DNA of 64,000 nucleotides from positions 93,667-157,666 of the forward strand of contig CANRDC010000001.1 of assembly GCA_947629245.1 (NCBI GenBank), given 5' to 3'. The DNA is from an uncultured Oscillospiraceae bacterium. GTDB taxonomy: Bacteria > Bacillota > Clostridia > Oscillospirales > Oscillospiraceae. Below, piece by piece: positions 9,951 through 64,000 of the stretch. Each line of letters opens with the position of its first letter. Position 1 is the stretch's first letter. The translations under genes were made by a program, and so were the position numbers. Below the pieces are notes generated by a model. That model searched no databases. It was not told the origin of the DNA and saw nothing but the letters and a program-made list of their open reading frames with translations.

Positions 9951-10003
9951 CTTTAATGTATGGCAGGTTCTACAATCTTTTAGAAAATGAGGTGTCATAT
10001 AAA

Positions 10004-10364
10004 ATGATTGAACTGCCATTCGCTGAGGCATCTGATGTTCTTGGCGACATCAAGGAGAGGCTTAAGGCTATGAAGCCTACGCCTGTCAACTTCTATCCGT
10101 ATCTCAAACGTGTTCTAAATGAACAGTATGAGAAATTGAAACCGCAGTATCCTAAGGATATCAAAATCCCTAAGGATACGGCGCATCTGCTCCGACAAGA
10201 CTTTGAGCCGGAGTACGTTATTCACTTGGAGGACGTTCCTCGCATGGAGGACGGAACTCCTATGTGGTTCGAGACATCTGAAGACCAGTGTTGGCTCCGT
10301 TTTGGGTACAATAATATGGATGCAAGGTTTATCTCGGACCAGAAATTGAGCATGGAGTACATAC
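10004..10364 (+). CDS. FtsK/SpoIIIE-type ATPase, exon 1 (N-terminal region, no TM helix)
   Basis: The ORF is open from 9956. ATG 10004 has GAGGTG 9 nt upstream. The frame runs into GTGCG at 10365 and stops at 10397-10399 if unspliced. Confidence 0.6.
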
Positions 10365-39126: not shown

Positions 39127-39148
39127 ATATATAAAAGGAGATAAAGAC

Positions 39149-49815: not shown

Positions 49816-52800
49816 ATGCGTAAGCGTTTTAAAGGCATAATCGTACGTGTGTCTGCCTTTATGCTGGTCTTGGTTATGACCATGACTGAAGCGTTGGCTG
49901 TGAACAAAGAAGTCAAAGTGTTCGGCGCCAAGTCTATTAACGACATGGGTGGGAGCGACCATCGCGTTACGATGGACGAACTCTATGATGATTACTCTGA
50001 CTTTGTTCAGGTTGACACACTTCGCGAGTATTTCCATAAAGACCAACCATCTCCTGCTAAGGCCGACCTCGGCACTGAGCTGAGTTGGTTGATTGACAAC
50101 AACATCATATCACGCGATAGTGTGATAATTGTCTCCAATGTTGGTGACAACACTATTCCTGAAGTCAACATTGAAAAGATGGATATTTCCCAGATAAACG
50201 TACAGAGCGTAACGAGGACCGACCTTATTATGCATCTGTATAAGGCTGTGTTCGGTCCCATCAATGCCAGGAGTATTGGCGTTGAAACTGCTAACGTTCG
50301 CGTTGATGACGGCGAGTACATAACACTCGAAGACCTTATGAAGAAGAGTGGGTTCTCTGAAGGTGTTAGCACACCTGTTGTTCCGCCGTATGATATAACC
50401 ACTGAGGGCGCCAGCGGAGGAGCTGGTGGTAGTGGTGGAGCCGGAGCTGTCAGCGGTCAGGGTGGCGAAGGCGGCGAAGGTGGCAAAACCTCTACTGGCG
50501 GAAATATGACACAGCAGGCAAATAACGACTCTTCTAACTGGAGGTACCAGCCACAGGGTGATTTGTGGGAAAGTATCTTTGGTGACACTAACATCTTCAT
50601 CAGCCAGAACGAGTTCACGCAGACGCAGACCGGCGGTACCGGCGGTAATGGCGGCGGAGGCGGTAACGGAGGAGAAGGCGGAGATGCTGATAAGGGCGGC
50701 GATGGCGGTGACGGTGGTGACGCTTCCGGCGGAGGCATCGACGACGACGGCAATACCATAGAGGGAACTCCTGGTGGCGACGGGGGCGATGGTGGTGACT
50801 CACTTGGTGGCGGCGGAGGCGGCGGCGGCTCCGGTGGAACTGGCGGGCAGGCCGTTACCGGTCCGAACCAGATTGACTACGAGACTGACTACAAGCAAAT
50901 CTACTTCATTCCTGGCGCCGACATCCTGTTCTACAACACTAACGATGTACCTGAGCCTTACATTCGTGAAGCCTTGGCGAAGGGACTTCTCACAGGTGAT
51001 AAAGAACTGAGGACTGAGGAGTTCAATAAGACATTCATTGACTTCTACTCTAACGATAACACCATTCGTGCATCGTGGGAGGGAAGCGTTCCGGCGTATG
51101 TTGTCAACCGCTCAATCAATAAGTTGAAGACTTATGCGAACGTCGATAATGTCGCCATGCAGTTTGTCCTTGGCTCTTGCTGGAATGTGTCTTACTCTAA
51201 CGGCACTATGACTATCGAAAGACTCAACCCCTTCGAGGCTAAGTCTGGTTACTTCTCCTCCGAGTATGTAACGAAGATGGAAATGTACCGCTACATTTAT
51301 GAGTTCCTGTACGCAAACGAGAAGGTCCTCTCGGACCTCGAACGTGATATCGTGAACTATAAGTATGGTACTCAGCTTGAGGGCATTGTGAACGGTGAAG
51401 ATGCTGAAATCATTGAGTATCTGATTGCAAAGGGAATTATCAACTATGATATCTCCACGGAATTTATGAACCTTGGTAACCCTGTGCACTGGTGCGATTT
51501 GATTAGTATGCTCTATCGCCTGGCGAATAAGAACGCTCGCTATGACTTCTCCGTCATTCAGCTGACTGACTCTGAAGCTGCTTGGAAGGCTCGCGGCTTT
51601 GGTCCTCGTACGCTAACTGCTGTGCCTTCGTCTTCGACTGGTACTATTAGGTTGGCGGACGAGAATGCTCCGGACTTTAATGGAGACAATGTTCTTATAT
51701 CCGAAGAAGTCGGCGAGTCATTTGAGGCAGTTGCAACATCTAAGGTAGACGACGGTTATAACTTTGTTAACTTCGGAGACCCAACTGACAACACGATAGC
51801 TACCGCGAGCACATCTGATATGTACAGCTATCGGTACACTTTCACAACAACTGGTCTTGCGCTGACTCTTAATGATGCTACTTCAACTCTATCAAGTGTG
51901 CTAAATAGAGAAGTAGATTACAATGCGATTGGACTCGCTGGACAACCGCAGACTGCAGCTGGTAGATATGTTGCAGTAATGCTGTACGACATGTTCACTA
52001 ACAAAAGCGGGTATACAAAGAAGAACGGGTACAACTCAACTGATGCATATCAGGCTGATGTACTCGACTGGCCTACGACTTGTACTGGTGATGACCCAGC
52101 TGGAAGAATACTTGCTGATGTCCTTTGTAATATGTGGGTCATAGGGACATGGCAGAAAAATCCTCAGGACCGTTCGAGGAACGAGGTCGCACATATACTT
52201 ACTGATGTTATGGCGTACATGAAGGAGAAAGAGGAAAAGCATAAAGCTAATCCTGATAATCCGCTCTATCCTGCACGTACGGCTGAGGAGAACCTTGCAT
52301 ATAATGCACTTATATCGTTGGACCAGCGATATCATGAGAGCTATAAAGAAGACAGTGGCCCTCAGAACATCAGCTTCGTGTTCTTGAATAAAGGCGCGGC
52401 TGATGGAGCAACTAAGTTCCAGAAACTCACTACTCCGGGAGCGTACTCTCAGAGCTTTGGCGATTGCTTTAATGGGCTCGCAGGCTGTACATATAATATT
52501 AAGGTTGACGGTGTCACTAAGAACTACGTTGCACAATTTGCTTCATTGCCCTCTGTAAATACTCAACGTGTTGTCAATGGTGACCCTCTGATACTGGAGA
52601 TTGCCGGTAACTGCCAGCTCAACGTTGTTACCGCTACGGAGGATAACGACCTTGCCAAAGCAGTTAAGGCTGCTGGTAATAGCTCTGGTAGTCTCGGCGC
52701 ATTTGATGCTGCGAGTATGACAGTTGGCATTACTACGCAGGTTTCTAATTCCGGCTCAGAGGGCTTTGTGTCTCGTAGCCAGATTGAGCAATATAATACA

Positions 52801-55575
52801 AGTTGCACCAATCAGGACGACATGCTGCCACTCACTTTTATAAGTGACTTTATAATTCTTAACACTCAGACCAACACGAGAGCTTATTTCTACAATGACA
52901 ATACAGACGCTAATAAATCCATTGCGCTTGTAGGTAATGAAGTGGTGACTGGCGACAGCCAGCTTGGCGTTGTGTTCAGAAGCGGTGAAGGTGAGTCAGC
53001 AGACATCTACTATCACATTAATGCAATTAGACTGCTTGTCGACTCGAAGCAGGAAGCCTCTATACTCGGTGGAGTATGTCCGTTGCCACTTGCTGACGTT
53101 GTCGTTACTGAGAACCTTAAAGAGGTTGTAGTCGATAATGGCTCGGGGACTAATACTATAACAGTACCAGGCCTGTGGGTCCTTATGAGTAAGGACGATG
53201 AGACTACATCTAAGTCGCTCCCAACTGACTCGGTGTACTTCAGTAGCCCAGCGTTTTATAATATGCGATGGGGTGAATTCATTGGACTATCTCAGTCCAA
53301 TAGAATGGCGAATGCAGTCGCCAGGCAGTACACCTATGAATATAACGGCGCGACACAGGCAGTCTACATGGTTCTTATGTTTGAACCGCTGTCCGTGCAG
53401 GCTATGGGTTCTGAAACTGTTACAAGTGAGATGTCTATGGAGGACCTGCTTGACGGCATAACTCAGCCACCTGCAGATAGTGTAGCAAAGCAAATTTGGA
53501 CTACGAATAAAGAGCGGGCAAACGCCTTCGCTAACTGGATTTACCAGACCACTGGTGTGAATTATGTTAACACTGGCTACCTGGAGCCACACGCATACAT
53601 CTACAGCACTGATGGTCAGGCGAGTAGCCATGTCCCAGCATCTTTCTGGTCAGCACTTGATGCAGTCGCAGGGCTTCGCGGTAATGTCACCGAGGTTCAG
53701 CTGATGAATGTGAGTGATGGTGCTCTTGCTCCTCCGGGTTCTGGTAAGCCAACTATCTCTAATACGAGTTATATCAGTAGTCCGCAGCATAAGGCGAATT
53801 ACCTGCTATCAGCAGACTACAAAGTAGCCGTTGTAGGAAACCGTGTTTATGTGAATGTTGGCTGCTTCCCGAATATAGAGCAAGGCGGCAGCGATTCTAA
53901 CTTCAGATATCGTACCAGTGGCGTTGGACGAAATCTCGCTACATTTACTGTTGGCAGTGTAATCAAGTTAGATAAGATTAAAGGCATCGTGTTCGACGGG
54001 GTCAAGGTTCCAAAGCTTACTGTTACTAAAACAGCAAGTGATGGAACTATTACGTGCCAGTTTGGCCCTATTGTAGGGCCGTCGTTCAAGGTTGGCAGCT
54101 CAACTGTTGTGCTTCGTGAAAATGTAGTTGATGGCGAAAAGACATTGACTCTTAACGATGCTCAATCAGGAGCCATAAATCGTATCAGATACATCTATGA
54201 ACAGGTGTTTAGAGACTCACTTGGTATACCCTGGGAAAACTTCTCTGTTGCTGAAAACCCGGCTCTTGATGTTGATACGACACGCACCCTTGTAAACACC
54301 GGTGCCAAGACGTGGGTAATGAACGGGAATGGAAATAGTAAGACTGGCGAAGTAGACACACTAAAGTACGATGGCGAGAGCGCCATCGAGACAGAGCTAA
54401 ATGCCTGGGTGAGCGCTAATAGTGGTAAGCTGTCACGTGAGGCAGCTAGCAATACTGAGACTTTTCTTACTGTAAAGTTTAGTGCCCTCGAATACCGTGT
54501 GGAGAATGGAACATTGATTAAGGGTCCCTCTCGTGTGAGTGATTTTGTGTCGCCTGAACTTTTCACTTCGCTTAACGACTTGATTATCGATAAGATGATA
54601 AGTGAAGATACTGGCGCCATCCCTCTCGAAGAGGTTCCGGACGGTTCGCTTGTCTTGATGGGTAGCGACTACTATGCCGCATCTGGTGGTTCAGCAGCTG
54701 ATAAAAAGTTTATCGGTTACTCGGCGCTTAACGGTACTGGGACTATCGAGCAATCGTATGCGACAGAGCAGGACGCGGCGAAATCCTTTGCGTCACATTT
54801 CATTTATGTTGGCAATCAGCCAATGAACATTACGCACTTCTTTACCGAGTTCTGGGTCATTACGTCGTTTACGGAAGAGCAGAAAACTGCGCTCCAGATA
54901 TGCGCCGATAATTTACAGTCTGGGCTGTATAGCCGTAAAGCTCTTGGACGCTTGCCAGGTAGTGTTACGACTACGATAGTTGATAAGGGGTATGGCGCAG
55001 ACACTCGTTTCTATGCACCAGTGCAGATTAAAGTACAGCCTGGGACACTTCTTGCTTATGAGACTTCGTCTCCGAATGACGCTGTTAAGAAGTATGAAAT
55101 TATTCCTACTGCTGATAGCGCCATGAGTGGCGCGCTTGATAATCTACCATTCTTCAATGACAGCGTGCTTAGTGGAACTGCTCGAAGCGTCACCACTGAC
55201 GTTATTCAGGGTGGGTTCAAGAAGTATGAGGGTGCGAAGTCCATTCTCGAAGACGTGGAAACTGAGTACGAGTATGGGTTCGCCAGCGATTTGTTCACCC
55301 TTGCACGCATGTTAGTCTTCATCGTTTTGGTATGGTTGGTGTGTGCAAGCTGGCTGTGCTTCGGTTGTTATTATGGTGGACTTATGCCGGTGCTTGAGTC
55401 CATCAGATACCCCACTAATAATAGAGAGGGAAAGGGCATCGATTTGTTCAAAATAGTCTCTCTCGGCTCCATTTCGATGGAGACTGATTTTAAGGTGGGG
55501 CGTTTCATTCAGTACAATCTCGTTCTTGCTGTACTGCTCGTGGTGGTTTGGCTGAGCGGGAACATCACATTCTAA
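49816..55575 (+). CDS. Giant secreted/envelope protein (1919 aa): signal peptide, Gly-rich low-complexity region, SLH-like motifs, two C-terminal TM helices
   Basis: Signal peptide MRKRFKGIIVRVSAFMLVLVMTMTEALA. Gly-rich run GGAGGSGGAG...GGDGGDGGDS. SLH-like IIEYLIAKGIINYD...VHWCDLISMLYRLA and SVTRTDLIMHLYKAV. C-terminal TM helices LVFIVLVWLVCASWLCFGCYYGG and LVLAVLLVVVWLSG. Confidence 0.65.
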   Translation: MRKRFKGIIVRVSAFMLVLVMTMTEALAVNKEVKVFGAKSINDMGGSDHRVTMDELYDDYSDFVQVDTLREYFHKDQPSPAKADLGTELSWLIDNNIISRDSVIIVSNVGDNTIPEVNIEKMDISQINVQSVTRTDLIMHLYKAVFGPINARSIGVETANVRVDDGEYITLEDLMKKSGFSEGVSTPVVPPYDITTEGASGGAGGSGGAGAVSGQGGEGGEGGKTSTGGNMTQQANNDSSNWRYQPQGDLWESIFGDTNIFISQNEFTQTQTGGTGGNGGGGGNGGEGGDADKGGDGGDGGDASGGGIDDDGNTIEGTPGGDGGDGGDSLGGGGGGGGSGGTGGQAVTGPNQIDYETDYKQIYFIPGADILFYNTNDVPEPYIREALAKGLLTGDKELRTEEFNKTFIDFYSNDNTIRASWEGSVPAYVVNRSINKLKTYANVDNVAMQFVLGSCWNVSYSNGTMTIERLNPFEAKSGYFSSEYVTKMEMYRYIYEFLYANEKVLSDLERDIVNYKYGTQLEGIVNGEDAEIIEYLIAKGIINYDISTEFMNLGNPVHWCDLISMLYRLANKNARYDFSVIQLTDSEAAWKARGFGPRTLTAVPSSSTGTIRLADENAPDFNGDNVLISEEVGESFEAVATSKVDDGYNFVNFGDPTDNTIATASTSDMYSYRYTFTTTGLALTLNDATSTLSSVLNREVDYNAIGLAGQPQTAAGRYVAVMLYDMFTNKSGYTKKNGYNSTDAYQADVLDWPTTCTGDDPAGRILADVLCNMWVIGTWQKNPQDRSRNEVAHILTDVMAYMKEKEEKHKANPDNPLYPARTAEENLAYNALISLDQRYHESYKEDSGPQNISFVFLNKGAADGATKFQKLTTPGAYSQSFGDCFNGLAGCTYNIKVDGVTKNYVAQFASLPSVNTQRVVNGDPLILEIAGNCQLNVVTATEDNDLAKAVKAAGNSSGSLGAFDAASMTVGITTQVSNSGSEGFVSRSQIEQYNTSCTNQDDMLPLTFISDFIILNTQTNTRAYFYNDNTDANKSIALVGNEVVTGDSQLGVVFRSGEGESADIYYHINAIRLLVDSKQEASILGGVCPLPLADVVVTENLKEVVVDNGSGTNTITVPGLWVLMSKDDETTSKSLPTDSVYFSSPAFYNMRWGEFIGLSQSNRMANAVARQYTYEYNGATQAVYMVLMFEPLSVQAMGSETVTSEMSMEDLLDGITQPPADSVAKQIWTTNKERANAFANWIYQTTGVNYVNTGYLEPHAYIYSTDGQASSHVPASFWSALDAVAGLRGNVTEVQLMNVSDGALAPPGSGKPTISNTSYISSPQHKANYLLSADYKVAVVGNRVYVNVGCFPNIEQGGSDSNFRYRTSGVGRNLATFTVGSVIKLDKIKGIVFDGVKVPKLTVTKTASDGTITCQFGPIVGPSFKVGSSTVVLRENVVDGEKTLTLNDAQSGAINRIRYIYEQVFRDSLGIPWENFSVAENPALDVDTTRTLVNTGAKTWVMNGNGNSKTGEVDTLKYDGESAIETELNAWVSANSGKLSREAASNTETFLTVKFSALEYRVENGTLIKGPSRVSDFVSPELFTSLNDLIIDKMISEDTGAIPLEEVPDGSLVLMGSDYYAASGGSAADKKFIGYSALNGTGTIEQSYATEQDAAKSFASHFIYVGNQPMNITHFFTEFWVITSFTEEQKTALQICADNLQSGLYSRKALGRLPGSVTTTIVDKGYGADTRFYAPVQIKVQPGTLLAYETSSPNDAVKKYEIIPTADSAMSGALDNLPFFNDSVLSGTARSVTTDVIQGGFKKYEGAKSILEDVETEYEYGFASDLFTLARMLVFIVLVWLVCASWLCFGCYYGGLMPVLESIRYPTNNREGKGIDLFKIVSLGSISMETDFKVGRFIQYNLVLAVLLVVVWLSGNITF
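50401..50850 (+). repeat. Coding low-complexity GGN-rich region (Gly/Asp/Glu/Ser repeats)
   Basis: Reiterated GGCGGTGAC, GGCGAAGGC and GGTGGC units read directly. Encodes GGxGG repeats. Confidence 0.7.
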
Positions 55576-55590
55576 AGGAGGAAACTCACA

Positions 55591-56721
55591 ATGACTTCTA
55601 CTGCAAAGTCTAAGTCGAGAGTATCTGCCTGGCTTCCTGGGTTTATCACGGTTCTTGCCGTGATTGTTATCGCAGGTGCCGCCACGTTTGCGAGCGTTGG
55701 TGCAAGGGCCGATAACTTCACCGACATCTTCTATACGAACAGCTTCCGCGGCGCCTTCAGCTGGATTGCAAAGCTGAACTGGGTCGGCACTATTGTGCAG
55801 GCTGTTATCTCAATCTTCTCCCTGCTCGGCGTCGCCTTGCTGACTATTCGTATTATGACCTCACTCCTCTACCTTTCCGCTAAGGGGATGTGGGAGGAAG
55901 TGCATGACCTTAAGAGCCAGGGCTCCCAGCAGGAGAAAGACTTCCTCGGACTGATGGGCATGGCTAAGACCTGGGCCTCCGGCTCTAAGGGTACTGGTCT
56001 TGATGCCATTATTGTCGCCGTGCTTATGCTCCTTCCCGATGTTAAGAGCTACTCTGACTTCAGTGATAAGGCTGGCGATAAATTCTCCAATGATATTTCT
56101 GCGTCGCAGTATATCTTGAAGATTGCTCTACCTACTGTTATGACGGTGTTCTTCTTCGCCATGGGTTTCAACGGTACCTTGTTCCAGGCTCTCGCTATTA
56201 CGGTCGATGCTCTCGGCACTGTGGCTGATAAGGTTATCTCTATTAACTACTCTGGCATCATTGAGGACCTTGTTAACACTGGTACTGGTTATAAGTTCGT
56301 CTACGATATCGACGGCACTGAACTTGGACAGTTGAAACAGTCAATTGCCGTTGATGTCTATGGTCAGGTCATTCGCCAGATTAAAGATGCTGATGCAAAT
56401 CAGCTCTATGATATGGGTCAGAAGGTCCAGACCTTCGTTGACCAGATAGACTACAGTACGCTAAGGGATGCAGCCGGTACATCTGCGCAGATGAAGACCA
56501 ATCTCGACGGTGAGGACCAAGATGAATTTGTTCAGTACTTCGGATATGAAGTTGTTGTATCTGGAACTGATATGGGTGATAAGGCTACCCTCAGCTGGGC
56601 GATGTCTGAGTTCATGCCAGAGACAGGTGTCGGAGCAGTTAACACGGATAGAACATTCTATCTTGGTGTTACACTCAAACAGAATAAGGAGTACAACGGT
56701 GGCTTTGTAAGCCGCCGGTGA
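55591..56721 (+). CDS. Polytopic membrane protein (376 aa) with a soluble C-terminal domain
   Basis: AAGGAGG RBS. At least four hydrophobic helices (FITVLAVIVIAGAATFA, VGTIVQAVISIFSLLGVALLTI, LDAIIVAVLMLL, LPTVMTVFFFAMGF). Confidence 0.6.
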   Translation: MTSTAKSKSRVSAWLPGFITVLAVIVIAGAATFASVGARADNFTDIFYTNSFRGAFSWIAKLNWVGTIVQAVISIFSLLGVALLTIRIMTSLLYLSAKGMWEEVHDLKSQGSQQEKDFLGLMGMAKTWASGSKGTGLDAIIVAVLMLLPDVKSYSDFSDKAGDKFSNDISASQYILKIALPTVMTVFFFAMGFNGTLFQALAITVDALGTVADKVISINYSGIIEDLVNTGTGYKFVYDIDGTELGQLKQSIAVDVYGQVIRQIKDADANQLYDMGQKVQTFVDQIDYSTLRDAAGTSAQMKTNLDGEDQDEFVQYFGYEVVVSGTDMGDKATLSWAMSEFMPETGVGAVNTDRTFYLGVTLKQNKEYNGGFVSRR

Positions 56722-56741
56722 AACTCAGAGTAATAATGTTG

Positions 56742-56780
56742 GCCGGTGTAGGTGTGAAAGCCTACACCGGCTTTTCTTTT
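56742..56780 (+). terminator. Rho-independent terminator
   Basis: GCCGGTGTAGG-tgtgaaag-CCTACACCGGC followed by TTTTCTTTT. Confidence 0.8.
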
Positions 56781-56870
56781 GTGGTGCAAGACTTCTGCTA
56801 ATGATACTTTAGCTAACATCATTGGTGGAAGTGTTGAACTTCAACACATTAAAGAAAGGAGCCAACTGTG

Positions 56871-57128
56871 ATGAAACAGAAACTAATTTATATCGTTGGC
56901 ATTATCTTAGTGGCTGCTATTGTCATTTATTCGCCATTTGAGAGAAAAAACTCAGAAATAGGCGACATACTCAACGACTGGGGTGAACATCAGCAGGAAA
57001 TGTCTGATAAGTTCACTGACCAAGTAGTATCAGGTGCAGAGGGCTCCTGGGTCGGCGAGCATCAAGTCGACGGCTCTAACTGGAGTATTCCTAATATTCT
57101 TCGTCATATCCTGGGGGTAGACAGATGA
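56871..57128 (+). CDS. Small single-pass membrane protein (85 aa)
   Basis: AAGGAG RBS. TM helix LIYIVGIILVAAIVIY. ATGA overlap with the next gene. Confidence 0.5.
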   Translation: MKQKLIYIVGIILVAAIVIYSPFERKNSEIGDILNDWGEHQQEMSDKFTDQVVSGAEGSWVGEHQVDGSNWSIPNILRHILGVDR

Positions 57129-60100
57129 AACAGATTTTCAAAAGAGTGACATGCATTTGCCTCGTCGCTTTAATGCTCTCAACATTGGCCGTTAATGCCT
57201 TCGCAGCGTCGACGCTGTGGAAGTGGGATAAGCAGGGTAAGAATGTAACTGGTTCAGGTATCCAGACAATGTTTATGCACGGTAACTGGATTGATGTGAC
57301 AACCGCAGGCAAGCAGACTGTCGACTATGCTAAATACGCTGATGTTCTATTGGGACAGATGAACTCATTTAAGGCGACAATAGACTCTTCAACAGATGAA
57401 GAACAACTGGTGACGGCGTATCTGAAGTATCTAGTTGCTTTATGCTGGTTAGACTTTAATATACTTTCGCCGCTCGACGGAGCTAATGCAAGTTCAGGTG
57501 AAGATGCTACGGGCAATTATTTTCTAAGTGCATCGGGTAACTCACTACCAGAGAGTGGTGTTCCAATCGCAACCTACAAAGATGTAAATGATACTATGGC
57601 TACGGCTATTCAGCAGTATAATGAGATATGTAATACTTTGAAGGGGAAGAAATGGTCTGACACTACTGACTATATGGCCGGAACTTATAGTCTTAAGGAG
57701 TACTTCAGCAAAGACAACACAATCGAGGTGGAGAACTGGACTACAGATGAAGTCACAGGTGAGGCCTACTATGATACAACCCCTCGTCGTACAGCATACA
57801 TTAGGGCGAATAACCTTCTTAATGCTTATGTGCGTAATGGTTCAGCAGTAGCTCTCGCTAAAACTATTCCGCTTGGGGACCAGACTGAGGCCGGACTTGC
57901 TGCTCTACTTGGTGGTGCATTAACTCCGAGTAATGTTCTTGATTGGCTGGAAGAGGATTTAAAGAGTAAAGCGAAGGAGAACGGCGAAAAACCAACCTCT
58001 GATGTGATTACCAACTCAGACTCGTATATAGTTGGCGATATGCCAATCTTCGACATGGCGATGAACAACTACTGGACCAATCTTTCGGACATAATAAAGG
58101 AAATTCATGGGTCTGATACTGCGTCACAGACCAATTATGAAGTAGGTGATATTGGGGATAAACACTTTGAATATGTAGATAGTGAGACAAATGGAACGCT
58201 TACGTGGAACGAGTGGAATGCCAATCAGTATATTAGCTTGGAAGTGCCAGTGTCTGGGGAGAGCCCTGGCTTGTATGGCACTATACAGGGACCAAGCTAT
58301 GATGGTCATAAAGATGGTGACACGTGGGCTGTTACAACTGCAATGAAAAATGCTGCTAAGGCTATACACGAGGCTGACGAGAAAGATGGCGTTACTAATC
58401 GTGTGCATAATATATACATCATGTTTGGTAACTCTCAGTTTTTTAGATATTTTAATGATACTGGTGAAGGTACCTTATTTAATGGTATTGGTAATACCGA
58501 ATTTTCAGTTAGTGAGGCAAATGAAAAATACCTCGAGAACATAGAAAGTTATGCCAGGCATTTGTTTTCAGCAATAAGTTCAATTATAGACGAGTTTGAG
58601 GGTGAGAATTGCCGTATCTATGTGTGCTCTTTGTTGCCCGGTATAACAGACGAGACAGAGTACACTGTTGGAATAAATAAAATAAAGGTAAGTGGTAAGC
58701 GTACTATATCAATTACTGTAGACTCAAGTGATACGGAAGACTTTACGAAAACGCACGCAGAGGCTGTTGCAGATTTAAATGCGGAGCTCGAAGAGCTGAT
58801 AGGTTATGCATCTGGCTGGGCTAATGTGACATGGTTTCCAATGGATAAGCTTGTTGTTACTAATGGTCAACAGAAACAGGAAGTGAGTTCTCCGCTGGTT
58901 GCAGGAAGTAGTAATGAGCTTAATACAACCTTACTAAATCCGTTACGGGAGATAGGGAGTGAGGGTGTCTACACTGCAATAAATGACCTCCCGTTTAATA
59001 ATTCGGCAAGCCACTGGTATGATAACTACGTACATTCATTGTCCCTTAATAAGTCTGGTACTGATGCTATCATTGAGATGCTCGGTATAAATAAGAAGAT
59101 AGACTGGGACCTCAATGGTAGTATGAATGGGTTTAACAACAGTGACTTGCAAGACTTATATAATGCGAGCAAGGATAAACTTTTACCAAGATTACGTGCG
59201 TATTCCAATGTCAGGACATACTACGAGCAACTGTTTATGAATGGTTATGCATCAGTTAAAAACAGTGACGGACAGGAATGGCGAGCGTATCAGTTCTACG
59301 ACCCTGAGATGTATAATCTTTTCAACATGGGTGACCTTGTCAACTCGCTCTATGATATAACCTTCGGGCAACACAGTGATATGGCCAATGGTAGCCTTCT
59401 ATCGAGTGGCGCGAATGACTTTACTTCAAATCTGCCGCAAGACCTTAATAAGAGTGTGCTTGAGATAATAGCCAACGCCAAGCTTGATAAGGGTGATATC
59501 GTGTGGGACGAGGGCGAGCACTCTATGACGGAGCTCGGATATATATTCCTCTGCGCTGGGGTGTGCTATGACCCGTTCAACTCAACTGCTGGTAATGAGA
59601 CATATCTTAACCTGGTACTTGATAGGTTTAGCGGACAGAATGGTAGTGAAGAACAGAACGAAAAAGTAAAGGCGTTACTACAGGAGGCAATTCAAAAGAA
59701 GAAGCCACTCTATGTAACAGAAGGTTCTAAGAGTTCGTGGACTAACGAAGAAGATTTATTTGAGATACCAGTTGCTAACTATCGTATTGCTTTCTTGTCT
59801 GATGTATTTCAGGAGAAGTCGTCTACCGTGAAAGCGTATGCAGTGGTATCCGGTGAGATGAACCCCTCAGCAGTTGACTCCTCGACTTGGGAGTATAAAA
59901 GCGGCGGAGCTGAGGCCAGTACTACTGGCTCTGCTACAGGGACGACAGACACAACAGGGGCTACTGCGGACACTCCTACTATTCAGAACAACAGTTCCTC
60001 CGCAGCACAGGGCTCTAATGTGGTTGCTGGTACTCAGTTGACTGCGGCCGGGGCAGAAATGTCACGTCCAGTGCTCTTAACAGCTGGTGCGAAGGAAGGC

Positions 60101-63100
60101 TGGATGAAGGGAAACTGGGGCGCCATGCAGGAGGGCTATGCCGCAAACGTTGGTGGTTTGACTGAAATCATTTTGCATAACGCCAGGCAGGACGCAAAGA
60201 ATAATAAACACCTTCAATCTGCGGATAGTGAGATGCTCTTCCTAAATGGACTTGGAGATATCATCCTTTCAGACAATACTATTGTGCTTCCGGCCATAGC
60301 GAACCCTATAATCTATGAGTATAGTGGCATCCAATATGATACTTATAACTCTGCCATACGCTTTTACACTCCAGAGACTGATTATCAGTCAGTCTCTGTA
60401 CTCGGTGGTAGTGGCAGCGGAAACCCCATCGTACAGGGGCCAAACGATAGCTTGTTCACAGCTGAAGATGAGGCATCTAAGATTTATGATGACACTAAAG
60501 GGTACTACCCATACTCAGCGGCGTTCATGAACCACTATCCATCTGCCATTATAAATATGGAAGGCGACTTGGCTCTGTCAAATAAGAACGACGAAGGTAA
60601 GTATGTCATCACGATTAATACTCGTGGGGCTGTACTCGCCAGGCGTATTCAGTCTGTTAGTAATCGCTCCGTTGCCACACTATACTATCGGGGTGGAGGT
60701 GTGACTGTCCCTAACATTCAGGCGTTGTCATTCTGTGTTGCGGATAACATCGATTACCTTGGTAACGTTATACCCTTCCGTAGTGGTTCCGATAAGGGTG
60801 ACAATTGGACGAACGCAGCTGAGTCTACGATGTACATGACGAAGGACACTCCGTTCAATAGTAACGAACAGCCATTCTTTCCACTCATTGAGCCAGATGC
60901 CGAGCAGATGGAGGATTTCATCATGCTCGCTTCGCCACTTATGACATCGGCTTACCGCTTCTTGACTGGTCGTACAGTTGAGACTGCGAATAAGGCGAGA
61001 GATACATTCAACATGGAGCACTATGTTGAGATGTGTGGCGAAGGGCTCCTCGGAACTCAGTATGCGGACACACTCATTAAGAACTATAAGGTCTCCTACG
61101 ATGATATGGTAGACGACACGCAGGGGCGCTTTACTCGTTGGCTTACTCAGCTGACTACTTCCACTGTCGATACCATCGGGAAAATTGACGGTGTACTCGC
61201 CATTAAGAACGGTTACGAGAATACCTTCTTCAATCTGATTGTGCAATTCATTCAGGAGTTCTACCTGCTGATTGTGATTGTACTTTTAATCATCGTCGCC
61301 ATTAAGTTTTTGCGTGGACACTACAACCTAATCTATGTGTGCTTCATCGGACTTCTCTGCTTGTGTGGCTTCGAGGTCTATGCTAACTGGATGCCAACTA
61401 TTGTGCCTGGTGCGTATAACTTCGCGGTCAACGATGCAGTGGAGCAAATCGCCTGGAATACTGTTGCATATAACGCCGAGTCTTACACTGAAACCTATAA
61501 AGACTCGGATAGAAAAGATGCAACAACTGGCGCGCTGAAGCCGTACACTGCGACCATCACACTGTATAAGATGTCGCAGGACGACATGGAGACTGTGGCC
61601 GCCAGGATTGGCACCACCTATGAAAGTATCAAGAAAGGCGAGGTTTACTACCTTGATGAAGCCGCCGGCGTCTTTGTGCAAGGCGATTGCATTAAGATGT
61701 CGGTGGATAAGTTGCTCGTTAACAACTCTATCAGGGGAATGTATTATAGCCAGTGGAAAGCGCAAGGAACCAACATCACTGGCTCGTCTGAGTTCATTCA
61801 GCCAGCAGTAGCGACGTACACTGACAACCCGTATCTGCTCGAGCTGGAGGAACCCTACGTCTCACTTGAGGCGTATTACATTCCTTTCAATGAGTTCGAG
61901 AGAGCGTTCCTCGCTAACTTGAATACTTTCACACAGTTCTTCCGCCTTGAGCGAAATCAGTTTTCCTACGACCGCGGACTCTATAAAGACGCCTTCGTGT
62001 TTAACTGTTTCACTAACTCAGGTATCTTTACGGCACCTGGGGACAGGCGTGTCTTGCTCCAGAACCTTGCTGTTGGAACGCTTGATACAAGCCGAATTCA
62101 GGACACTGACATGTTCCTTGATGAAATTGAGGAATACTTCATGCCTGAGGCTGACTGGCTAAATCTCGACATGGTGTTCGAGCATCCGTCAGTTAATATG
62201 CAGGACTCTCTATGGGGTAAGACATTGCAGGATAGAGGCTGGTACGACGCTGACTGGAACATCACGGTCAACGGACGTAAGGAGCTTGGTGAACTAATCG
62301 GCTATATCAATAATATGACGAAGCAGTTCATCATTGATAACCTTGACCAGTTGAACTTCTGCTCGGATGAAAATGCTATAAAGTTGACCACGCTTTATGC
62401 GACGACATGCTTTACGCATTATGTGTCTGAGTTCGGAAACTGGCTCTATCCTAACTATCTCAACGCGGCAGACATGGAATTGAAGGACGTTATGTACGGT
62501 TCCATGACTACGCTGAGGGATAGGAACTTCGCCTATGATGGAACTGTTGTAAACACAGTCGCCTTGAACCTTGGGTTCTTCGGCGTCTTGTTCATCTTCT
62601 TCATCACCATCTTTGCGACAGTCTTTGTGTTCGTCATGACCTATCTCGTTCCTATCCTGTACGCCATGTTTGGCGCCATCATTGTTCTCAAGCTTGTTCT
62701 TAGTAAAGACGGGTTTGGTATGGTACAGGGGTATATTAAGGTGACATTAGTCACCGCGATACTCTACTTCATCTTCTCACTATCGCTGAGACTGGTTGAG
62801 GTTGGTGGCTACGCCTGGTATGGATACCTCGGCTGTGCACTCATTATATTCCTCTGTGATTACATGATGTTCTGGGTGTGTCTCTCTGTCGTGCAGAACG
62901 CCGGTGAGATGGGTAACGATGTGCTTGGTCGTAACCTACTTCATGGACTGGATAAGCTGACGCATGGCGCCGTGTCCAAGCTTGGCGTCGACAGAATGTT
63001 TGCTAACAGACAGTCGGCGAAATATGGGAACGGTGGCGCCATGCCTGTGCCATATCAGTATGGGCGGCACTATAATGTCGACCACTATGACCCCAGCCGT

Positions 63101-63361
63101 TCTTCTCGTCGTGGTTTGTTCGGGCGCGGTCGTTCTCGTACTGAGGACGCTTACTCTGCTTATGGTCATGGAATGTCCTATGACGAAGCTGCTTCTTATC
63201 GTGATAGCGACAGCCATATGCCTAACTTCTTGCGTCGCGCAACTCCGGAAGAACGTGCCGCCAGGCGTGAAGAGCGCCGTGTTCAGCATGAAACTAATCG
63301 ACGTAGAAATCGTGCAGCTCGTAATGTTGAATACGGAGACTACGATAGTCAGGACCTTTGA
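57125..63361 (+). CDS. Giant envelope protein (2078 aa): signal peptide, large extracytoplasmic region with an SGNH-like segment, VirB6/TcpH/ConG-like polytopic C-terminal region, basic tail
   Basis: Signal peptide MKQIFKRVTCICLVALMLSTLAVNAFA. Two TM helices around FYLLIVIVLLIIVAI/LIYVCFIGLLCLCGF. A ~380-aa loop, then at least four TM helices (FFGVLFIFFITIFATVFVFVMTYLVPILYAMFGAIIVL ... LGCALIIFLCDYMMFWVCLSV). Arg-rich C-terminus. Confidence 0.6.
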   Translation: MKQIFKRVTCICLVALMLSTLAVNAFAASTLWKWDKQGKNVTGSGIQTMFMHGNWIDVTTAGKQTVDYAKYADVLLGQMNSFKATIDSSTDEEQLVTAYLKYLVALCWLDFNILSPLDGANASSGEDATGNYFLSASGNSLPESGVPIATYKDVNDTMATAIQQYNEICNTLKGKKWSDTTDYMAGTYSLKEYFSKDNTIEVENWTTDEVTGEAYYDTTPRRTAYIRANNLLNAYVRNGSAVALAKTIPLGDQTEAGLAALLGGALTPSNVLDWLEEDLKSKAKENGEKPTSDVITNSDSYIVGDMPIFDMAMNNYWTNLSDIIKEIHGSDTASQTNYEVGDIGDKHFEYVDSETNGTLTWNEWNANQYISLEVPVSGESPGLYGTIQGPSYDGHKDGDTWAVTTAMKNAAKAIHEADEKDGVTNRVHNIYIMFGNSQFFRYFNDTGEGTLFNGIGNTEFSVSEANEKYLENIESYARHLFSAISSIIDEFEGENCRIYVCSLLPGITDETEYTVGINKIKVSGKRTISITVDSSDTEDFTKTHAEAVADLNAELEELIGYASGWANVTWFPMDKLVVTNGQQKQEVSSPLVAGSSNELNTTLLNPLREIGSEGVYTAINDLPFNNSASHWYDNYVHSLSLNKSGTDAIIEMLGINKKIDWDLNGSMNGFNNSDLQDLYNASKDKLLPRLRAYSNVRTYYEQLFMNGYASVKNSDGQEWRAYQFYDPEMYNLFNMGDLVNSLYDITFGQHSDMANGSLLSSGANDFTSNLPQDLNKSVLEIIANAKLDKGDIVWDEGEHSMTELGYIFLCAGVCYDPFNSTAGNETYLNLVLDRFSGQNGSEEQNEKVKALLQEAIQKKKPLYVTEGSKSSWTNEEDLFEIPVANYRIAFLSDVFQEKSSTVKAYAVVSGEMNPSAVDSSTWEYKSGGAEASTTGSATGTTDTTGATADTPTIQNNSSSAAQGSNVVAGTQLTAAGAEMSRPVLLTAGAKEGWMKGNWGAMQEGYAANVGGLTEIILHNARQDAKNNKHLQSADSEMLFLNGLGDIILSDNTIVLPAIANPIIYEYSGIQYDTYNSAIRFYTPETDYQSVSVLGGSGSGNPIVQGPNDSLFTAEDEASKIYDDTKGYYPYSAAFMNHYPSAIINMEGDLALSNKNDEGKYVITINTRGAVLARRIQSVSNRSVATLYYRGGGVTVPNIQALSFCVADNIDYLGNVIPFRSGSDKGDNWTNAAESTMYMTKDTPFNSNEQPFFPLIEPDAEQMEDFIMLASPLMTSAYRFLTGRTVETANKARDTFNMEHYVEMCGEGLLGTQYADTLIKNYKVSYDDMVDDTQGRFTRWLTQLTTSTVDTIGKIDGVLAIKNGYENTFFNLIVQFIQEFYLLIVIVLLIIVAIKFLRGHYNLIYVCFIGLLCLCGFEVYANWMPTIVPGAYNFAVNDAVEQIAWNTVAYNAESYTETYKDSDRKDATTGALKPYTATITLYKMSQDDMETVAARIGTTYESIKKGEVYYLDEAAGVFVQGDCIKMSVDKLLVNNSIRGMYYSQWKAQGTNITGSSEFIQPAVATYTDNPYLLELEEPYVSLEAYYIPFNEFERAFLANLNTFTQFFRLERNQFSYDRGLYKDAFVFNCFTNSGIFTAPGDRRVLLQNLAVGTLDTSRIQDTDMFLDEIEEYFMPEADWLNLDMVFEHPSVNMQDSLWGKTLQDRGWYDADWNITVNGRKELGELIGYINNMTKQFIIDNLDQLNFCSDENAIKLTTLYATTCFTHYVSEFGNWLYPNYLNAADMELKDVMYGSMTTLRDRNFAYDGTVVNTVALNLGFFGVLFIFFITIFATVFVFVMTYLVPILYAMFGAIIVLKLVLSKDGFGMVQGYIKVTLVTAILYFIFSLSLRLVEVGGYAWYGYLGCALIIFLCDYMMFWVCLSVVQNAGEMGNDVLGRNLLHGLDKLTHGAVSKLGVDRMFANRQSAKYGNGGAMPVPYQYGRHYNVDHYDPSRSSRRGLFGRGRSRTEDAYSAYGHGMSYDEAASYRDSDSHMPNFLRRATPEERAARREERRVQHETNRRRNRAARNVEYGDYDSQDL

Positions 63362-63429
63362 TACTGCGTTTTAGGCAGGCGGCATTAAAACTCGCATCGT
63401 AGTTCAGAAGGCGAATTAAGACTCGATTT

Positions 63430-63470
63430 GGGCCACTCAGCTTTCATTGCTGAGTGGCCCTTTTCTTTCT
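63430..63470 (+). terminator. Rho-independent terminator
   Basis: GGGCCACTCAG-ctttcattg-CTGAGTGGCCC followed by TTTTCTTTCT. Confidence 0.8.
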
Positions 63471-63504
63471 CTTGCAAAACTATTCAAGGAGTGAGGTGAG
63501 CCAG

Positions 63505-64000
63505 ATGCCTAATATGTACAGTGACTCCGATGACATTTCCTATACCCCATCGACGGAACCTGAAGATGAACGAATGGAAACTCTCGTGTTTCCGCTTAAT
63601 GTTCATGAGTCTATTAAGGCTTCTGGTGGCCTCAAGAAGTCTGAGAAGACAGGTATCATAATATCTTTCTGGATATTCGGATGCGCCATTCTCGCTTACT
63701 TCATGATTAGTTGGCTTAGACCTGTCGTGCCTGGCCACTATATTCTAATAACTGTAGTTGTCGAAATTCTACTTCAGCTGACTGTCGGCATGTACCTGCT
63801 TCGTTTCCTACTCGACGAAAAGTCTATGATGAACGAGGTAGGAAATAAGGAGACAAGCTTCGCAGAGTTTTTCAGAATTTACAAGGAGCGCCTTGCTGCC
63901 GAGGGAACGTATCCATTCGACTTACTTGAGATGAATGACGGCAGTTACGCCGTGTTCATTGAATGTCGCCTCGGTCACAATACTAACACCCGGTCGGAGA
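63505..64000 (+). CDS. Membrane protein, 5' partial (runs off the window): TM hairpin then a soluble region; possible VirB3-VirB4-type T4SS component
   Basis: ATG 63505 follows GGAGTGAGGTGAG and the frame is open to the window end. TM helices IIISFWIFGCAILAYFMISWL and ILITVVVEILLQLTVGMYLL. Then ...DLLEMNDGSYAVFIECRLGHNT, which resembles VirB4 N-terminal regions. This ORF is not in the supplied track because it has no stop. Confidence 0.4.
   Translation, partial: MPNMYSDSDDISYTPSTEPEDERMETLVFPLNVHESIKASGGLKKSEKTGIIISFWIFGCAILAYFMISWLRPVVPGHYILITVVVEILLQLTVGMYLLRFLLDEKSMMNEVGNKETSFAEFFRIYKERLAAEGTYPFDLLEMNDGSYAVFIECRLGHNTNTRSE

What the first reader, a model, noticed from the sequence alone, without database searches (positions are those of the whole stretch)
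49816..64000. Envelope-spanning module: two giant signal-peptide/TM proteins, polytopic partners and a VirB3/VirB4-like start
About 14 kb is devoted to these components:
- a 1919-aa protein with a signal peptide, a Gly-rich spacer, SLH-like motifs and two C-terminal TM helices
- a 376-aa polytopic protein
- an 85-aa single-pass protein
- a 2078-aa protein with a signal peptide, a huge extracytoplasmic region and a VirB6/TcpH/ConG-like cluster of six or more TM helices with an Arg-rich cytoplasmic tail
- after a terminator, a gene beginning with a TM hairpin followed by a VirB4-N-like segment, cut off by the window edge

This resembles a Gram-positive-type conjugative type IV secretion system, but with channel and surface components several-fold larger than usual. 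It sits in an element that also has phage-like replication and recombination genes and a separate GspE-type ATPase. It could be a novel DNA or protein transfer apparatus.
Basis: partly seen in the sequence, partly recalled or inferred. Interest (0 to 1): 0.65.

Follow-up and report, generated by a model that had tools for sequence, protein, structure and literature searches.

The report
Divergent type IV secretion module with giant subunits
This stretch of a large (at least 229 kb), unclassified gut-bacterial mobile element encodes two ~2,000-residue envelope proteins and small membrane partners, sitting just upstream of a highly divergent VirB4-type motor ATPase; it is most likely the cell-envelope part of an undescribed branch of the DNA-transfer (type IV secretion) machines of Gram-positive bacteria.

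Summary
The ORFs exist as described: 1919 aa, 376 aa, 85 aa, 2078 aa, then a gene cut by the window edge. Signal peptides, the Gly-rich spacer, TM anchors and two strong terminators are confirmed. SLH motifs are not.

A 99%-identical contig extends the sequence. The cut gene is a complete 349-aa TM-hairpin protein, not VirB4. Three genes further lies a 658-aa ATPase. Its AlphaFold model (pLDDT 87) matches full-length TrwK/VirB4 of R388 best (Foldseek E 2.5e-16).

The order 376 / giant / 349 / ~410 / ~406 / VirB4 / bitopic protein is kept in relatives. They lie mostly on 100-470 kb contigs; those with named hosts are mainly Clostridia. The bitopic protein carries a peptidoglycan M23 peptidase in some relatives.

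The membrane domain of the 2078-aa protein defines a closed family: 183 clusters, mostly 1300-2450 aa. Its confident model has VirB6-like topology but no fold match in PDB or BFVD.

No relaxase was found. A candidate coupling ATPase (FtsK-like, split by a group II intron) lies 37 kb upstream.

Verdict: a real, strongly divergent T4SS-like module. It is probably conjugative, but that is unproven. It counts as a new variant of a known kind. Giant Bacillota elements with cryptic VirB6 (Hodors, Inocles) were described recently.

The parts
49816..55575 (+). g1919: 1919-aa envelope protein. It has a signal peptide (aa 1-28), a Gly-rich low-complexity spacer (aa ~176-350, nt ~50341-50865), a ~1450-aa ectodomain without known domains, and a C-terminal TM hairpin (aa 1833-1851 and 1901-1919).
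   Evidence: ORF; hydropathy; Gly content. No Pfam, NCBIfam, PHROGs or PDB-sequence hit. A full-length homologue (42% id, 1868 aa) occupies the same position in L018. The C-terminal ~100-160 aa are conserved in more distant loci.
55591..56721 (+). g376: polytopic membrane protein. It has a signal-anchor plus ~3 hydrophobic segments in aa 8-205, then a ~170-aa soluble C-terminal part. It is a second candidate for the VirB6-like role.
   Evidence: Conserved at 24-54% identity directly upstream of the giant polytopic gene in 8 related loci. No family or PDB hit.
56741..56772 (+). Intrinsic-terminator-like hairpin (13 bp stem followed by a T-run) after g376.
56871..57128 (+). g85: 85-aa single-pass membrane protein whose gene overlaps the start of g2078.
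   Evidence: A small gene of 66-91 aa occupies the same position in L003, L017 and L018.
57125..63361 (+). g2078: 2078-aa protein. Its parts are:
- signal peptide (aa 1-27);
- fast-evolving ectodomain (aa ~30-1340);
- conserved membrane domain (aa 1320-1970, nt 61082-63034) with TM helices at about aa 1367-1396, 1402-1438, 1818-1859, 1864-1893 and 1898-1924, and a 380-aa alpha/beta loop between TM2 and TM3;
- Arg-rich, disordered cytoplasmic tail.

It is the proposed channel or stalk subunit (a VirB6 analogue).
   Evidence: The AlphaFold model has pLDDT 81.4 and pTM 0.78. The family comprises 183 clusters, almost all 1300-2450 aa. Identity to the closest relative is 64-70% in the membrane domain but ~20% in the first 800 aa. 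There is no fold match in PDB or BFVD.
63430..63460 (+). Intrinsic-terminator-like hairpin (12 bp stem with 9 GC pairs, followed by a T-run) after g2078.
63505..64000 (+). 5' part (165 of 349 codons) of g349. The protein has an N-in/C-in TM hairpin (aa 50-98) followed by a ~250-aa cytoplasmic domain. Its topology is VirB3-like; it is not VirB4. Beyond the window (L001/L006, window-equivalent ~64576-~70160) follow g409, g406, the 658-aa VirB4-like ATPase, g615 and g340.
   Evidence: Family alignment. The VirB4 fold of the 658-aa ATPase is shown.
9956..12802 (+). FtsK/SpoIIIE-like ATPase gene (723 aa after splicing), interrupted by an ORF-less group II intron at 10365-11042. It is the candidate coupling or DNA-pumping ATPase of the element. 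It lies outside the finding's coordinates.
   Evidence: Pfam FtsK_SpoIIIE at 2.4e-10. NCBIfam gives weak EssC/FtsK hits. Rfam RF02004 scores 129 bits and RF00029 scores 55 bits. Splice junction read.

Best explanation
The 14 kb encode the envelope-spanning, surface-exposed half of a strongly divergent, VirB4-powered type IV secretion (mating-pair-formation) machine. It belongs to a large (>=229 kb), unclassified, plasmid-like element of a gut Clostridia-type host.

**Shown**
- A conserved gene block reads: g1919 / g376 / g85 / g2078 | g349 / g409 / g406 / VirB4-fold ATPase / bitopic wall-associated protein.
- The ATPase has the complete two-domain VirB4 fold.
- The membrane domain of g2078 is the conserved core of a closed family of giant proteins.
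- The outer ~800 aa of g2078 evolve several-fold faster than its membrane domain.
- Close relatives carry a peptidoglycan M23 peptidase directly after VirB4.

**Inferred**
- A VirB4 hexamer docks at the membrane through the VirB3-like hairpin protein g349.
- g2078 (N-out, five TM helices, large TM2-TM3 loop, C-in, which is the VirB6 topology) forms the translocation channel. Its fused >1300-aa ectodomain may form a stalk through the thick wall or S-layer. g376 may participate.
- g1919 is held by a conserved C-terminal TM hairpin and extended by a flexible Gly-rich spacer. It acts as the surface adhesin or wall-spanning partner that contacts recipient cells.
- g615 and its M23-bearing homologues open the peptidoglycan locally.
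- g409 (SIMIBI/ParA-like P-loop, degenerate in this copy) and g406 position or assemble the complex.
- The intron-split FtsK-like ATPase feeds DNA to the machine.
For: - **Downstream extension and gene order:**
- **VirB4:** the model has pLDDT 87.3. Foldseek hits in the PDB are 8rtd/7o43 TrwK at E 2.5e-16 to 1e-14 over ~650 columns and 4ag6 VirB4 at 5e-12, ahead of DndH, HerA and TrwB. NCBIfam gives VirB4_plasma at 4.9e-11 and TraC-F at 2.4e-7. Walker A (G292, G294, K295) and E530/E531 are invariant in 111 homologues.
- **Synteny:** it is kept in 10 related loci with 29-47% GC. Those with named hosts come from Lachnospiraceae, Clostridium paraputrificum, Wujia and an uncultured Clostridium MAG.
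- **Hydrolase:** Peptidase_M23 lies after VirB4 in L017 and L018. g615 is homologous to the N-terminal ~570 aa of that protein (1e-79).
- **g2078:** topology and confident model; family of 183 clusters; gradient of conservation.
- **Published comparison:** the review PMC12857230 describes 'extended VirB6' proteins with 5 or more hydrophobic helices plus large hydrophilic domains, and 700-900-aa VirB6 in MPF_FA systems.
- **g409:** its profile hits Get3/MinD/BY-kinase-type P-loops (best 2e-4).
- **Candidate coupling ATPase:**
- **No phage signal:**
Against: - No relaxase, VirB8-like or VirD4-type protein was recognised in the 79 kb examined.
- g2078 and g376 match no VirB6/TrbL profile and no solved VirB6 (TrwI is in 8rtb/8rtd). 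The best Foldseek E is 1.3.
- VirB4 sequence scores are far below curated cut-offs (41 vs 590 bits; Pfam P-loop_TraG 16 vs 25.8).
- The FtsK-like ATPase has no TM segment and lies 37 kb away.
- This element's own g615 lacks the M23 domain.
- Roles of g1919, g349, g409 and g406 rest on topology, position and weak profile hits only.
- No expression data were found.
Confidence: 0.62

Rival explanations
1. The module is a VirB4-powered machine that does not transfer the element's DNA. It could instead be a protein or effector secretion system, a contact-dependent competition system, or a device that assembles or exports the two giant surface proteins (an adhesion or S-layer-like coat) for the host cell.
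For: - No relaxase or canonical VirD4 was found near the module.
- The giants dominate the locus, and their exposed parts evolve fast, as for surface antigens or adhesins.
- Non-conjugative T4SSs in monoderms exist (review PMC12857230).
- A relative inserts a 1348-aa SLH protein inside the block.
Against: - Both giants carry Sec-type signal peptides, so they do not need a dedicated exporter.
- The module travels with huge mobile-element-like contigs of very different GC content across Clostridia. This fits self-transfer.
- VirB4 is ancestrally and most commonly conjugative (PMC4027160, listed; my knowledge of its content).
- An FtsK-like DNA translocase is present in the element.
Confidence: 0.22
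2. The element is a giant phage or phage-plasmid. The giants would be tail, fibre or injection proteins, and the 658-aa ATPase a HerA/FtsK-type genome-packaging motor.
For: - The window carries phage-like replication and recombination genes.
- There is a weak, P-loop-only PHROG 'terminase large subunit' hit (1e-4).
- HerA structures appear among the lower Foldseek hits (3e-10).
- Comparable megaplasmids were first binned as huge phages (PMC12934698).
Against: - There are no PHROG structural hits for 19 large proteins.
- The g2078 domain has no BFVD fold match.
- The ATPase family is absent from INPHARED and IMG/VR.
- VirB4 outranks HerA by six orders of magnitude and aligns over both domains.
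- The giants are integral membrane proteins with N-out/C-in topology, unlike virion proteins.
Confidence: 0.05
3. The module is a type VII (Ess/Yue-like) or other FtsK-ATPase-driven secretion system. In this reading g2078 plays an EsaA/YueB-like role (large ectodomain plus C-terminal TM bundle).
For: - The FtsK-like ATPase's best NCBIfam hit is EssC (7e-9).
- The EsaA/YueB architecture (big ectodomain plus TM bundle) is superficially similar (my knowledge).
Against: - The EssC score is 34 bits against a cut-off of 778.
- The FtsK-like gene is 37 kb away from the module.
- The ATPase embedded in the module has the VirB4 fold.
- No WXG100, EssB or EsaA profiles hit.
- No PDB fold match for g2078.
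Confidence: 0.03

Closest known systems
Gram-positive (monoderm) conjugative T4SSs of the MPF_FA/MPF_FATA types: ICEBs1 ConB-ConG/CwlT, pCF10 PrgH-L, pCW3 Tcp, Tn916 Orf13-16
   Same: - A VirB4-fold ATPase is the conserved motor.
- A small TM-hairpin protein lies upstream, with VirB3-like topology.
- There is a large polytopic protein with a big extracellular loop, the topology of VirB6/ConG/TcpH.
- In relatives, a bitopic peptidoglycan hydrolase follows VirB4 directly.
- An FtsK-like ATPase is a possible coupling protein, as with TcpA.
- All genes are co-oriented.
   Different: - VirB4 is too divergent for curated profiles (41 vs 590 bits).
- The polytopic protein has 1300-2450 aa, against 700-900 aa for MPF_FA VirB6 (PMC12857230). 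It has an N-terminal signal peptide and a fused >1300-aa ectodomain, and shows no sequence or fold similarity to VirB6.
- A second ~1900-aa protein is anchored by a TM hairpin rather than by LPXTG.
- Two extra conserved soluble proteins (~410 and ~406 aa, one ParA/MinD-like) sit between the hairpin protein and VirB4.
- No VirB8-like protein or relaxase was recognised.
'Hodor' conjugative megaplasmids of human-gut Bacillota (bioRxiv 2026, PMC12934698)
   Same: - Elements of hundreds of kb in Bacillota with about 47% GC (group G1).
- They are missed by plasmid databases.
- VirB4 is present, and VirB6 is recognisable only by structure and TM analysis.
- There is no canonical relaxase.
- They carry giant signal-peptide surface proteins.
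   Different: - Hodors are reported only from human gut or wastewater. This window is from rabbit gut.
- The Hodor hallmarks were not seen in the 79 kb around this VirB4: Rep_3, ParA/ParB next to the T4SS genes, sortases, SecYEG, and giants of 7300 and 2640 aa with S-layer/MBG domains.
- Many Hodors were found in viral databases. This ATPase family is absent from IMG/VR.
- Relatives here span 29-47% GC.
- A direct sequence comparison was not possible because no supplement is held.
'Inocle' giant extrachromosomal elements of oral Streptococcus (Nat Commun 2025, PMC12340149)
   Same: Giant (245-350 kb) plasmid-like elements of Bacillota with mostly unknown genes, carrying VirB4 and VirD4.
   Different: - Their host is Streptococcus and their GC content is 24-32%.
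- The genome-collection scan with this ATPase profile found no Streptococcus locus.
- No sequence comparison was possible.
Extended-VirB6 proteins (e.g. rickettsial RvhB6; ConG, TcpH, PrgH)
   Same: Five or more hydrophobic helices plus large hydrophilic domains. The N-out/C-in topology and the large loop after TM2 match what is described for A. tumefaciens VirB6 (my knowledge; review text).
   Different: - The extension here is N-terminal, extracytoplasmic and much larger.
- No homology is detectable by Pfam, NCBIfam, PDB profile search or Foldseek.

Membership tests
Type IV secretion system (VirB4-based mating-pair-formation machine) | A VirB4-family ATPase, the only ubiquitous T4SS protein. 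| tested here: met
   The AlphaFold model (pLDDT 87.3) best matches full-length TrwK/VirB4 (E 2.5e-16, 653 columns) and Thermoanaerobacter VirB4. NCBIfam gives VirB4_plasma at 4.9e-11 and TraC at 2.4e-7. This is fold-level and weak sequence-level support only; scores are below curated cut-offs. The gene lies ~3 kb beyond the window end.
Type IV secretion system (VirB4-based mating-pair-formation machine) | A VirB6-family polytopic channel subunit. | tested here: inconclusive
   g2078 has the VirB6 topology: N-out, 5 TM helices, a large TM2-TM3 loop and C-in. It has no Pfam/NCBIfam hit, no PDB profile hit and no Foldseek match to TrwI or anything else (best E 1.3). g376 is an untested alternative candidate.
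Type IV secretion system (VirB4-based mating-pair-formation machine) | A VirB3-like TM-hairpin partner of VirB4. | tested here: inconclusive
   g349 has a conserved TM hairpin with an invariant R/E-rich segment after it. There is no profile or PDB hit.
Type IV secretion system (VirB4-based mating-pair-formation machine) | A cell-wall hydrolase (VirB1 equivalent) in monoderm systems. | tested here: inconclusive
   Relatives L017 and L018 carry Peptidase_M23 in the protein directly after VirB4. This element's g615 shares the first ~570 aa (1e-79) but lacks the M23 domain and has no family hit. Cys/His motifs that look NlpC/P60-like are my reading only.
Conjugative element (self-transmissible) | A relaxase plus oriT. 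| tested here: not met
   Pfam scans of the main ORFs (about 118 aa and longer) of the 64-kb window, with NCBIfam on a subset, and of the first six genes (~6.7 kb) downstream of the window found no relaxase family; Pfam annotations precomputed for the genes further downstream show none either. The remaining ~150 kb of the source contig could not be read.
Conjugative element (self-transmissible) | A type IV coupling protein (VirD4 or TcpA/FtsK-like). | tested here: inconclusive
   A 723-aa FtsK_SpoIIIE-domain ATPase lies at 9956-12802 (Pfam 2.4e-10). Its Walker A motif is restored by group II intron splicing. It has no TM helix, is 37 kb from the module, and has no VirD4/TraG profile hit.
MPF_FA / MPF_FATA T4SS classes of Firmicutes | The VirB4 and accessory proteins score above the class-specific profiles. 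| tested here: not met
   VirB4_plasma scores 41 bits against a cut-off of 590, and P-loop_TraG 16.2 against 25.8. No accessory protein hits any profile. CONJScan models were not available.
Hodor megaplasmids (PMC12934698) | Rep_3, ParA/ParB/ParM and a MOBH-like HD relaxase plus helicase clustered with VirB4, VirD4 and VirB6; sortases; SecYEG; giants of 7300 and 2640 aa; human gut origin. | tested here: inconclusive
   In the scanned window plus ~6.7 kb downstream there are no Rep_3, ParA/ParB, sortase or SecY hits, and the precomputed annotations further downstream show none. The only possible matches are a weak 'partition protein' PHROG and a UvrD helicase. The source is rabbit gut. The rest of the contig is unread, and no Hodor sequences are held.
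   PHROGs gives no hits for g1919, g2078 or their neighbours. BFVD Foldseek gives no hit for the g2078 membrane domain. There is no LPXTG motif and no Pfam domain.

The most novel reading that the evidence does not exclude
The block defines a new mating-pair-formation (T4SS) class that is specific to a previously unrecognised, widespread lineage of 100-470 kb extrachromosomal elements of Clostridia. In this class the membrane channel subunit has a fold unrelated to VirB6 and is fused to a >1300-aa wall-spanning ectodomain. A second ~1900-aa hairpin-anchored protein and two pseudo-ATPase scaffolds replace the usual VirB8 and adhesin components.
Probability: 0.45. Interest if true: 0.72.

Novelty: new variant of a known kind. 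Interest (0 to 1): 0.6.

Why it matters
Conjugation machines of Gram-positive bacteria are poorly understood. In particular, it is unclear how DNA crosses the thick wall.

This module offers a conserved variant in which the presumed channel protein carries its own huge extracellular extension. It is found in 183 protein clusters. It is paired with a VirB4 so divergent that standard tools (Pfam, NCBIfam cut-offs, PLSDB, IMG/VR) miss it.

The module also marks a large, essentially unannotated family of 100-470 kb elements in gut Clostridia of animals and humans. Their mobility, host range and cargo are unknown.

Two cultured carriers exist: C. paraputrificum LFYP93 and Lachnospiraceae bacterium 47-T17. 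The hypothesis is therefore directly testable.

Tried and rejected
1. **DNA and protein searches of annotated collections.** Megablast of the 14 kb found no match in PLSDB or INPHARED. tblastn of the ATPase found none either.
2. **Word-indexed homology searches.** Searching with g2078 and with a profile of its membrane domain returned only itself and one fragment. The index is swamped by hydrophobic words. The exhaustive HMMER search was needed.
3. **The gene at 63505 as VirB4.** Rejected: it is 349 aa, complete, and unrelated to the ATPase.
4. **SLH motifs in g1919.** Rejected. SLH occurs only in an extra 1348-aa protein of one distant relative.
5. **Paralogy among g349, g409, g406, VirB4 and g615.** hhalign found none. 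The only weak signal is a P-loop-region similarity between g409 and VirB4 (10% probability).
6. **Internal repeats in the giants, or similarity between them.** None found.
7. **PDB sequence searches.** Profile or single-sequence searches for g1919, the g2078 ectodomain, the g2078 membrane domain, g376, g349 and g406 gave nothing significant.
8. **Phage identity.** No structural PHROGs and no hits in IMG/VR.
9. **Type VII secretion reading.** Rejected on scores and on the VirB4 fold.
10. **Same family as Hodor groups G1/G2.** The ~50% identity between this VirB4 and that of L011 recalled the 48% between G1 and G2. However, L011 has 29% GC, not 44.6%, so that mapping fails.
12. **RNA runs.** None are available.


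Full report
**1. Observation**

The region contains four complete, co-oriented ORFs:
- 49816-55575, 1919 aa (g1919)
- 55591-56721, 376 aa (g376)
- 56868/56871-57128, 86/85 aa (g85)
- 57125-63361, 2078 aa (g2078)

A fifth gene starts at ATG 63505 and runs off the window.

Hydropathy and direct reading confirm the membrane features:
- Both giants have Sec-type signal peptides (..EALA|VN and ..NAFA|AS).
- g1919 has a Gly-rich spacer at about aa 176-350, reaching 52% Gly per 50 aa.
- g1919 has a C-terminal TM hairpin (aa 1833-1851 and 1901-1919).
- g85 has one TM helix.
- g376 has about four hydrophobic segments.
- The fifth gene has a TM hairpin at aa 50-98.

Two strong terminator-like hairpins follow g376 (56741-56772) and g2078 (63430-63460). 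They split the block into at least three transcription units.

'SLH-like motifs' could not be confirmed. g1919 has no Pfam hit even at E<=10.

None of the proteins hits Pfam, NCBIfam or PHROGs.

**2. Extension beyond the window**

An exact-protein look-up found contigs from other samples of the same study. One of them, L001, is 99.2% identical to window 50526-64000. In that overlap, 105 of the 106 differences lie in the Gly-rich coding stretch.

L001 and L006 extend the sequence about 15 kb downstream.
- The gene at 63505 is a complete 349-aa protein (g349).
- It is followed by soluble proteins of 409 aa (g409) and 406 aa (g406).
- Next comes a 658-aa P-loop ATPase.
- Then follow a 615-aa bitopic protein (g615) and a 340-aa bitopic protein (g340).
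- Further on are NERD and GreA-N-domain genes.

A profile-profile comparison of g349 with the ATPase gives 0.8% probability.

**3. The ATPase is a VirB4 homologue**
- Single-sequence profile hits are weak but specific: NCBIfam VirB4_plasma at 4.9e-11, TraC-F-type at 2.4e-7, Pfam P-loop_TraG at 0.004. All are far below curated cut-offs.
- A database search found 116 homologues at 30-74% identity. None carries a functional name; the few names given by sources read 'hypothetical protein'. They lie mostly on contigs of 100-470 kb.
- An AlphaFold model built from 111 of them is confident (pLDDT 87.3).
- Its best PDB matches are full-length TrwK/VirB4 in the R388 T4SS (8rtd, 7o43; E 2.5e-16 to 1e-14; about 650 aligned columns). 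Next comes Thermoanaerobacter VirB4 (4ag6, 5e-12).
- DndH-C, HerA and TrwB rank lower.
- Walker A and the acidic Walker B pair are invariant.

**4. Conserved module**

Ten related loci were recovered from metagenomes, MAGs and two isolates. The isolates are Clostridium paraputrificum LFYP93 and Lachnospiraceae bacterium 47-T17. The MAGs include Lachnospiraceae, Clostridia, Clostridium and Wujia, plus a short Anaeroplasmataceae contig. GC content ranges from 29% to 47%.

All ten keep the same order: g376-like, giant polytopic protein, g349-like, ~410-440 aa, ~405-430 aa, VirB4, then a bitopic protein of 470-875 aa. The C-terminal anchor of a g1919-like giant lies upstream wherever the flank reaches.

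The closest relative with complete flanks, L018, repeats the whole window arrangement: AAA-143-1868-383-86-1966-353-417-407-657-766-342. Its 1868-aa protein is 42% identical to g1919 over the full length.

In L017 and L018 the protein after VirB4 ends in a Peptidase_M23 domain. In L003 a separate 3D-domain protein follows. g615 of this element is homologous to the first ~570 aa of the L018 protein (1e-79) but lacks the M23 domain.

**5. The giant polytopic protein**

An exhaustive HMMER search of 1.84 billion representatives with g2078 aa 1320-2078 found 183 clusters.
- 170 of them have E<=1e-10, so the edge of the family is sharp.
- Almost all are 1300-2450 aa long and carry the domain at the C-terminus.

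The model of this domain, built from a 60-sequence alignment, is confident (pLDDT 81.4, pTM 0.78).
- It has two long TM helices, then a 380-aa alpha/beta domain, then three long TM helices.
- Two amphipathic helices and a disordered Arg-rich tail follow.
- With the cleaved signal peptide, this gives N-out, five TM helices, a large extracytoplasmic TM2-TM3 loop and C-in.

As far as I know, that is the topology established for A. tumefaciens VirB6. It also fits the 'extended VirB6' description in the review PMC12857230.

However, Foldseek finds nothing in the PDB, which contains TrwI/VirB6 (best E 1.3). It also finds nothing in BFVD, and profile searches find nothing. The VirB6 assignment is therefore by position and topology only. 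g376 is an alternative candidate.

The first ~800 aa of g2078 are only ~20% identical to the closest relative, against 64-70% in the membrane domain. This pattern is expected for a surface-exposed part involved in recognition.

**6. Other parts**
- The g409 family profile weakly matches SIMIBI-class P-loops: Rv3679/Get3-like at 2e-4, and BY-kinases, SRP54 and MinD at 0.02-0.9. The window element's own copy has a degenerate P-loop (direct reading).
- g406 and g349 have no detectable relatives of known structure.
- There is no LPXTG motif.
- There are no internal repeats, and no similarity between the two giants.

**7. The element**
- The whole window is co-oriented on one strand and mostly unannotatable.
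- Recognisable genes are PspA, FtsK_SpoIIIE, NERD, Toprim, Metallophos, UvrD, DHH, a T2SSE ATPase, GNAT, a 5'-3' exonuclease and a clamp-loader-like AAA protein.
- There are no phage structural PHROGs and no tRNA genes.
- The ATPase family is absent from PLSDB, INPHARED and IMG/VR.
- The source is rabbit gut, and the source contig is 228,842 bp long.
- The FtsK-like gene is split by an ORF-less group II intron. Rfam RF02004 scores 129 bits and RF00029 scores 55 bits. Splicing 10364|11043 restores a 723-aa ORF with its Walker A motif. This is the only candidate coupling or DNA-pump ATPase.
- No relaxase was recognised.

**8. Interpretation**

The best-supported reading is a highly divergent monoderm T4SS (confidence ~0.62 for the machine and its proposed roles taken as a whole). 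It is probably conjugative (~0.55).

Its channel subunit and adhesin are several times larger than in ICEBs1, pCF10, pCW3 or Tn916. It also has extra conserved soluble components.

Rival readings are:
- a non-conjugative VirB4 machine or surface-coat assembly system (0.22);
- a phage device (0.05);
- a T7SS-like system (0.03).

**9. Comparison with known systems and novelty**

Giant Bacillota elements with VirB4 and a cryptic VirB6 were described recently: Hodors (PMC12934698) and Inocles (PMC12340149). Membership in either could not be tested by sequence. The Hodor hallmarks were not seen in the 79 kb available, and the sample origin differs.

I therefore rate this a new variant of a known kind rather than categorically new. 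Its interest is moderate to high, for three reasons:
- the module is widespread;
- it is invisible to standard annotation;
- it is testable in two cultured carriers.

Noticed in passing
window 9956-12802 (intron 10365-11042): An ORF-less group II intron (678 nt, 5' GUGCG, 3' AU) interrupts the FtsK/SpoIIIE-like ATPase gene just upstream of its Walker A motif. Rfam RF02004 scores 129 bits and RF00029 scores 55 bits. Splicing gives a continuous 723-aa ORF (..MEYIH|SFLGGSSGHGKS..).
   Followed up: yes
window 50341-50865 (g1919 aa ~176-350): The Gly-rich coding stretch is the only place where the window and the 99%-identical contig L001 differ (105 of 106 ungapped differences). It is also where the L001 assembly breaks. 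It is probably length-variable or hard to assemble. The gene caller truncated the L001 copy to 1533 aa.
   Followed up: partly
window 35446-39895: A GspE/PilB/ComGA-like T2SSE ATPase (531 aa) lies 14 kb upstream of the T4SS-like block. It is followed by a 118-aa Arg/Pro-rich protein, a 166-aa protein with an N-terminal hydrophobic segment (pilin- or anchor-like), a 410-aa bitopic protein and an acidic 248-aa protein. This may be a second, filament- or pilus-type membrane module. The review states that Gram-positive T4SSs lack VirB11 homologues.
   Followed up: partly
window 5309-5995, 22329-23783, 46451-47827: Three genes have 59-61% GC, against 48.7% for the window. Each has a long antisense ORF as a composition artefact. 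One is a PspA/IM30 homologue (7.7e-40). The other two (484 and 458 aa, Ala/Thr-rich) have no Pfam or PHROG hit. Codon bias from high expression is one possibility.
   Followed up: partly
L001 14051-16508 (just beyond the window end): Two conserved soluble proteins (409 and 406 aa) sit between the TM-hairpin protein and VirB4 in every relative. The first family has a ParA/MinD/BY-kinase-like P-loop that is degenerate in this element's copy. The second has a central coiled-coil-like segment and a ParA-like beta-strand/helix pattern without a P-loop.
   Followed up: partly
L020 1-1900 (upstream of window position 1): About 1.9 kb without convincing ORFs precedes the first window gene. Contigs from three samples all end 0.9-1.9 kb upstream of that gene. 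This suggests a repeat, an origin region or an element terminus. Only short imperfect inverted repeats were found.
   Followed up: partly
L005 3095-7141: In one distant relative (JGI 3300042616, 212-kb contig), a 1348-aa SLH-domain protein is inserted between the g349-like and g409-like genes. This indicates a host with an S-layer and shows that the block accepts extra wall-associated giants.
   Followed up: no
window 1-64000: Every credible gene in the window, and in the 15 kb downstream, is on the + strand. Cumulative GC skew rises monotonically across the window.
   Followed up: no
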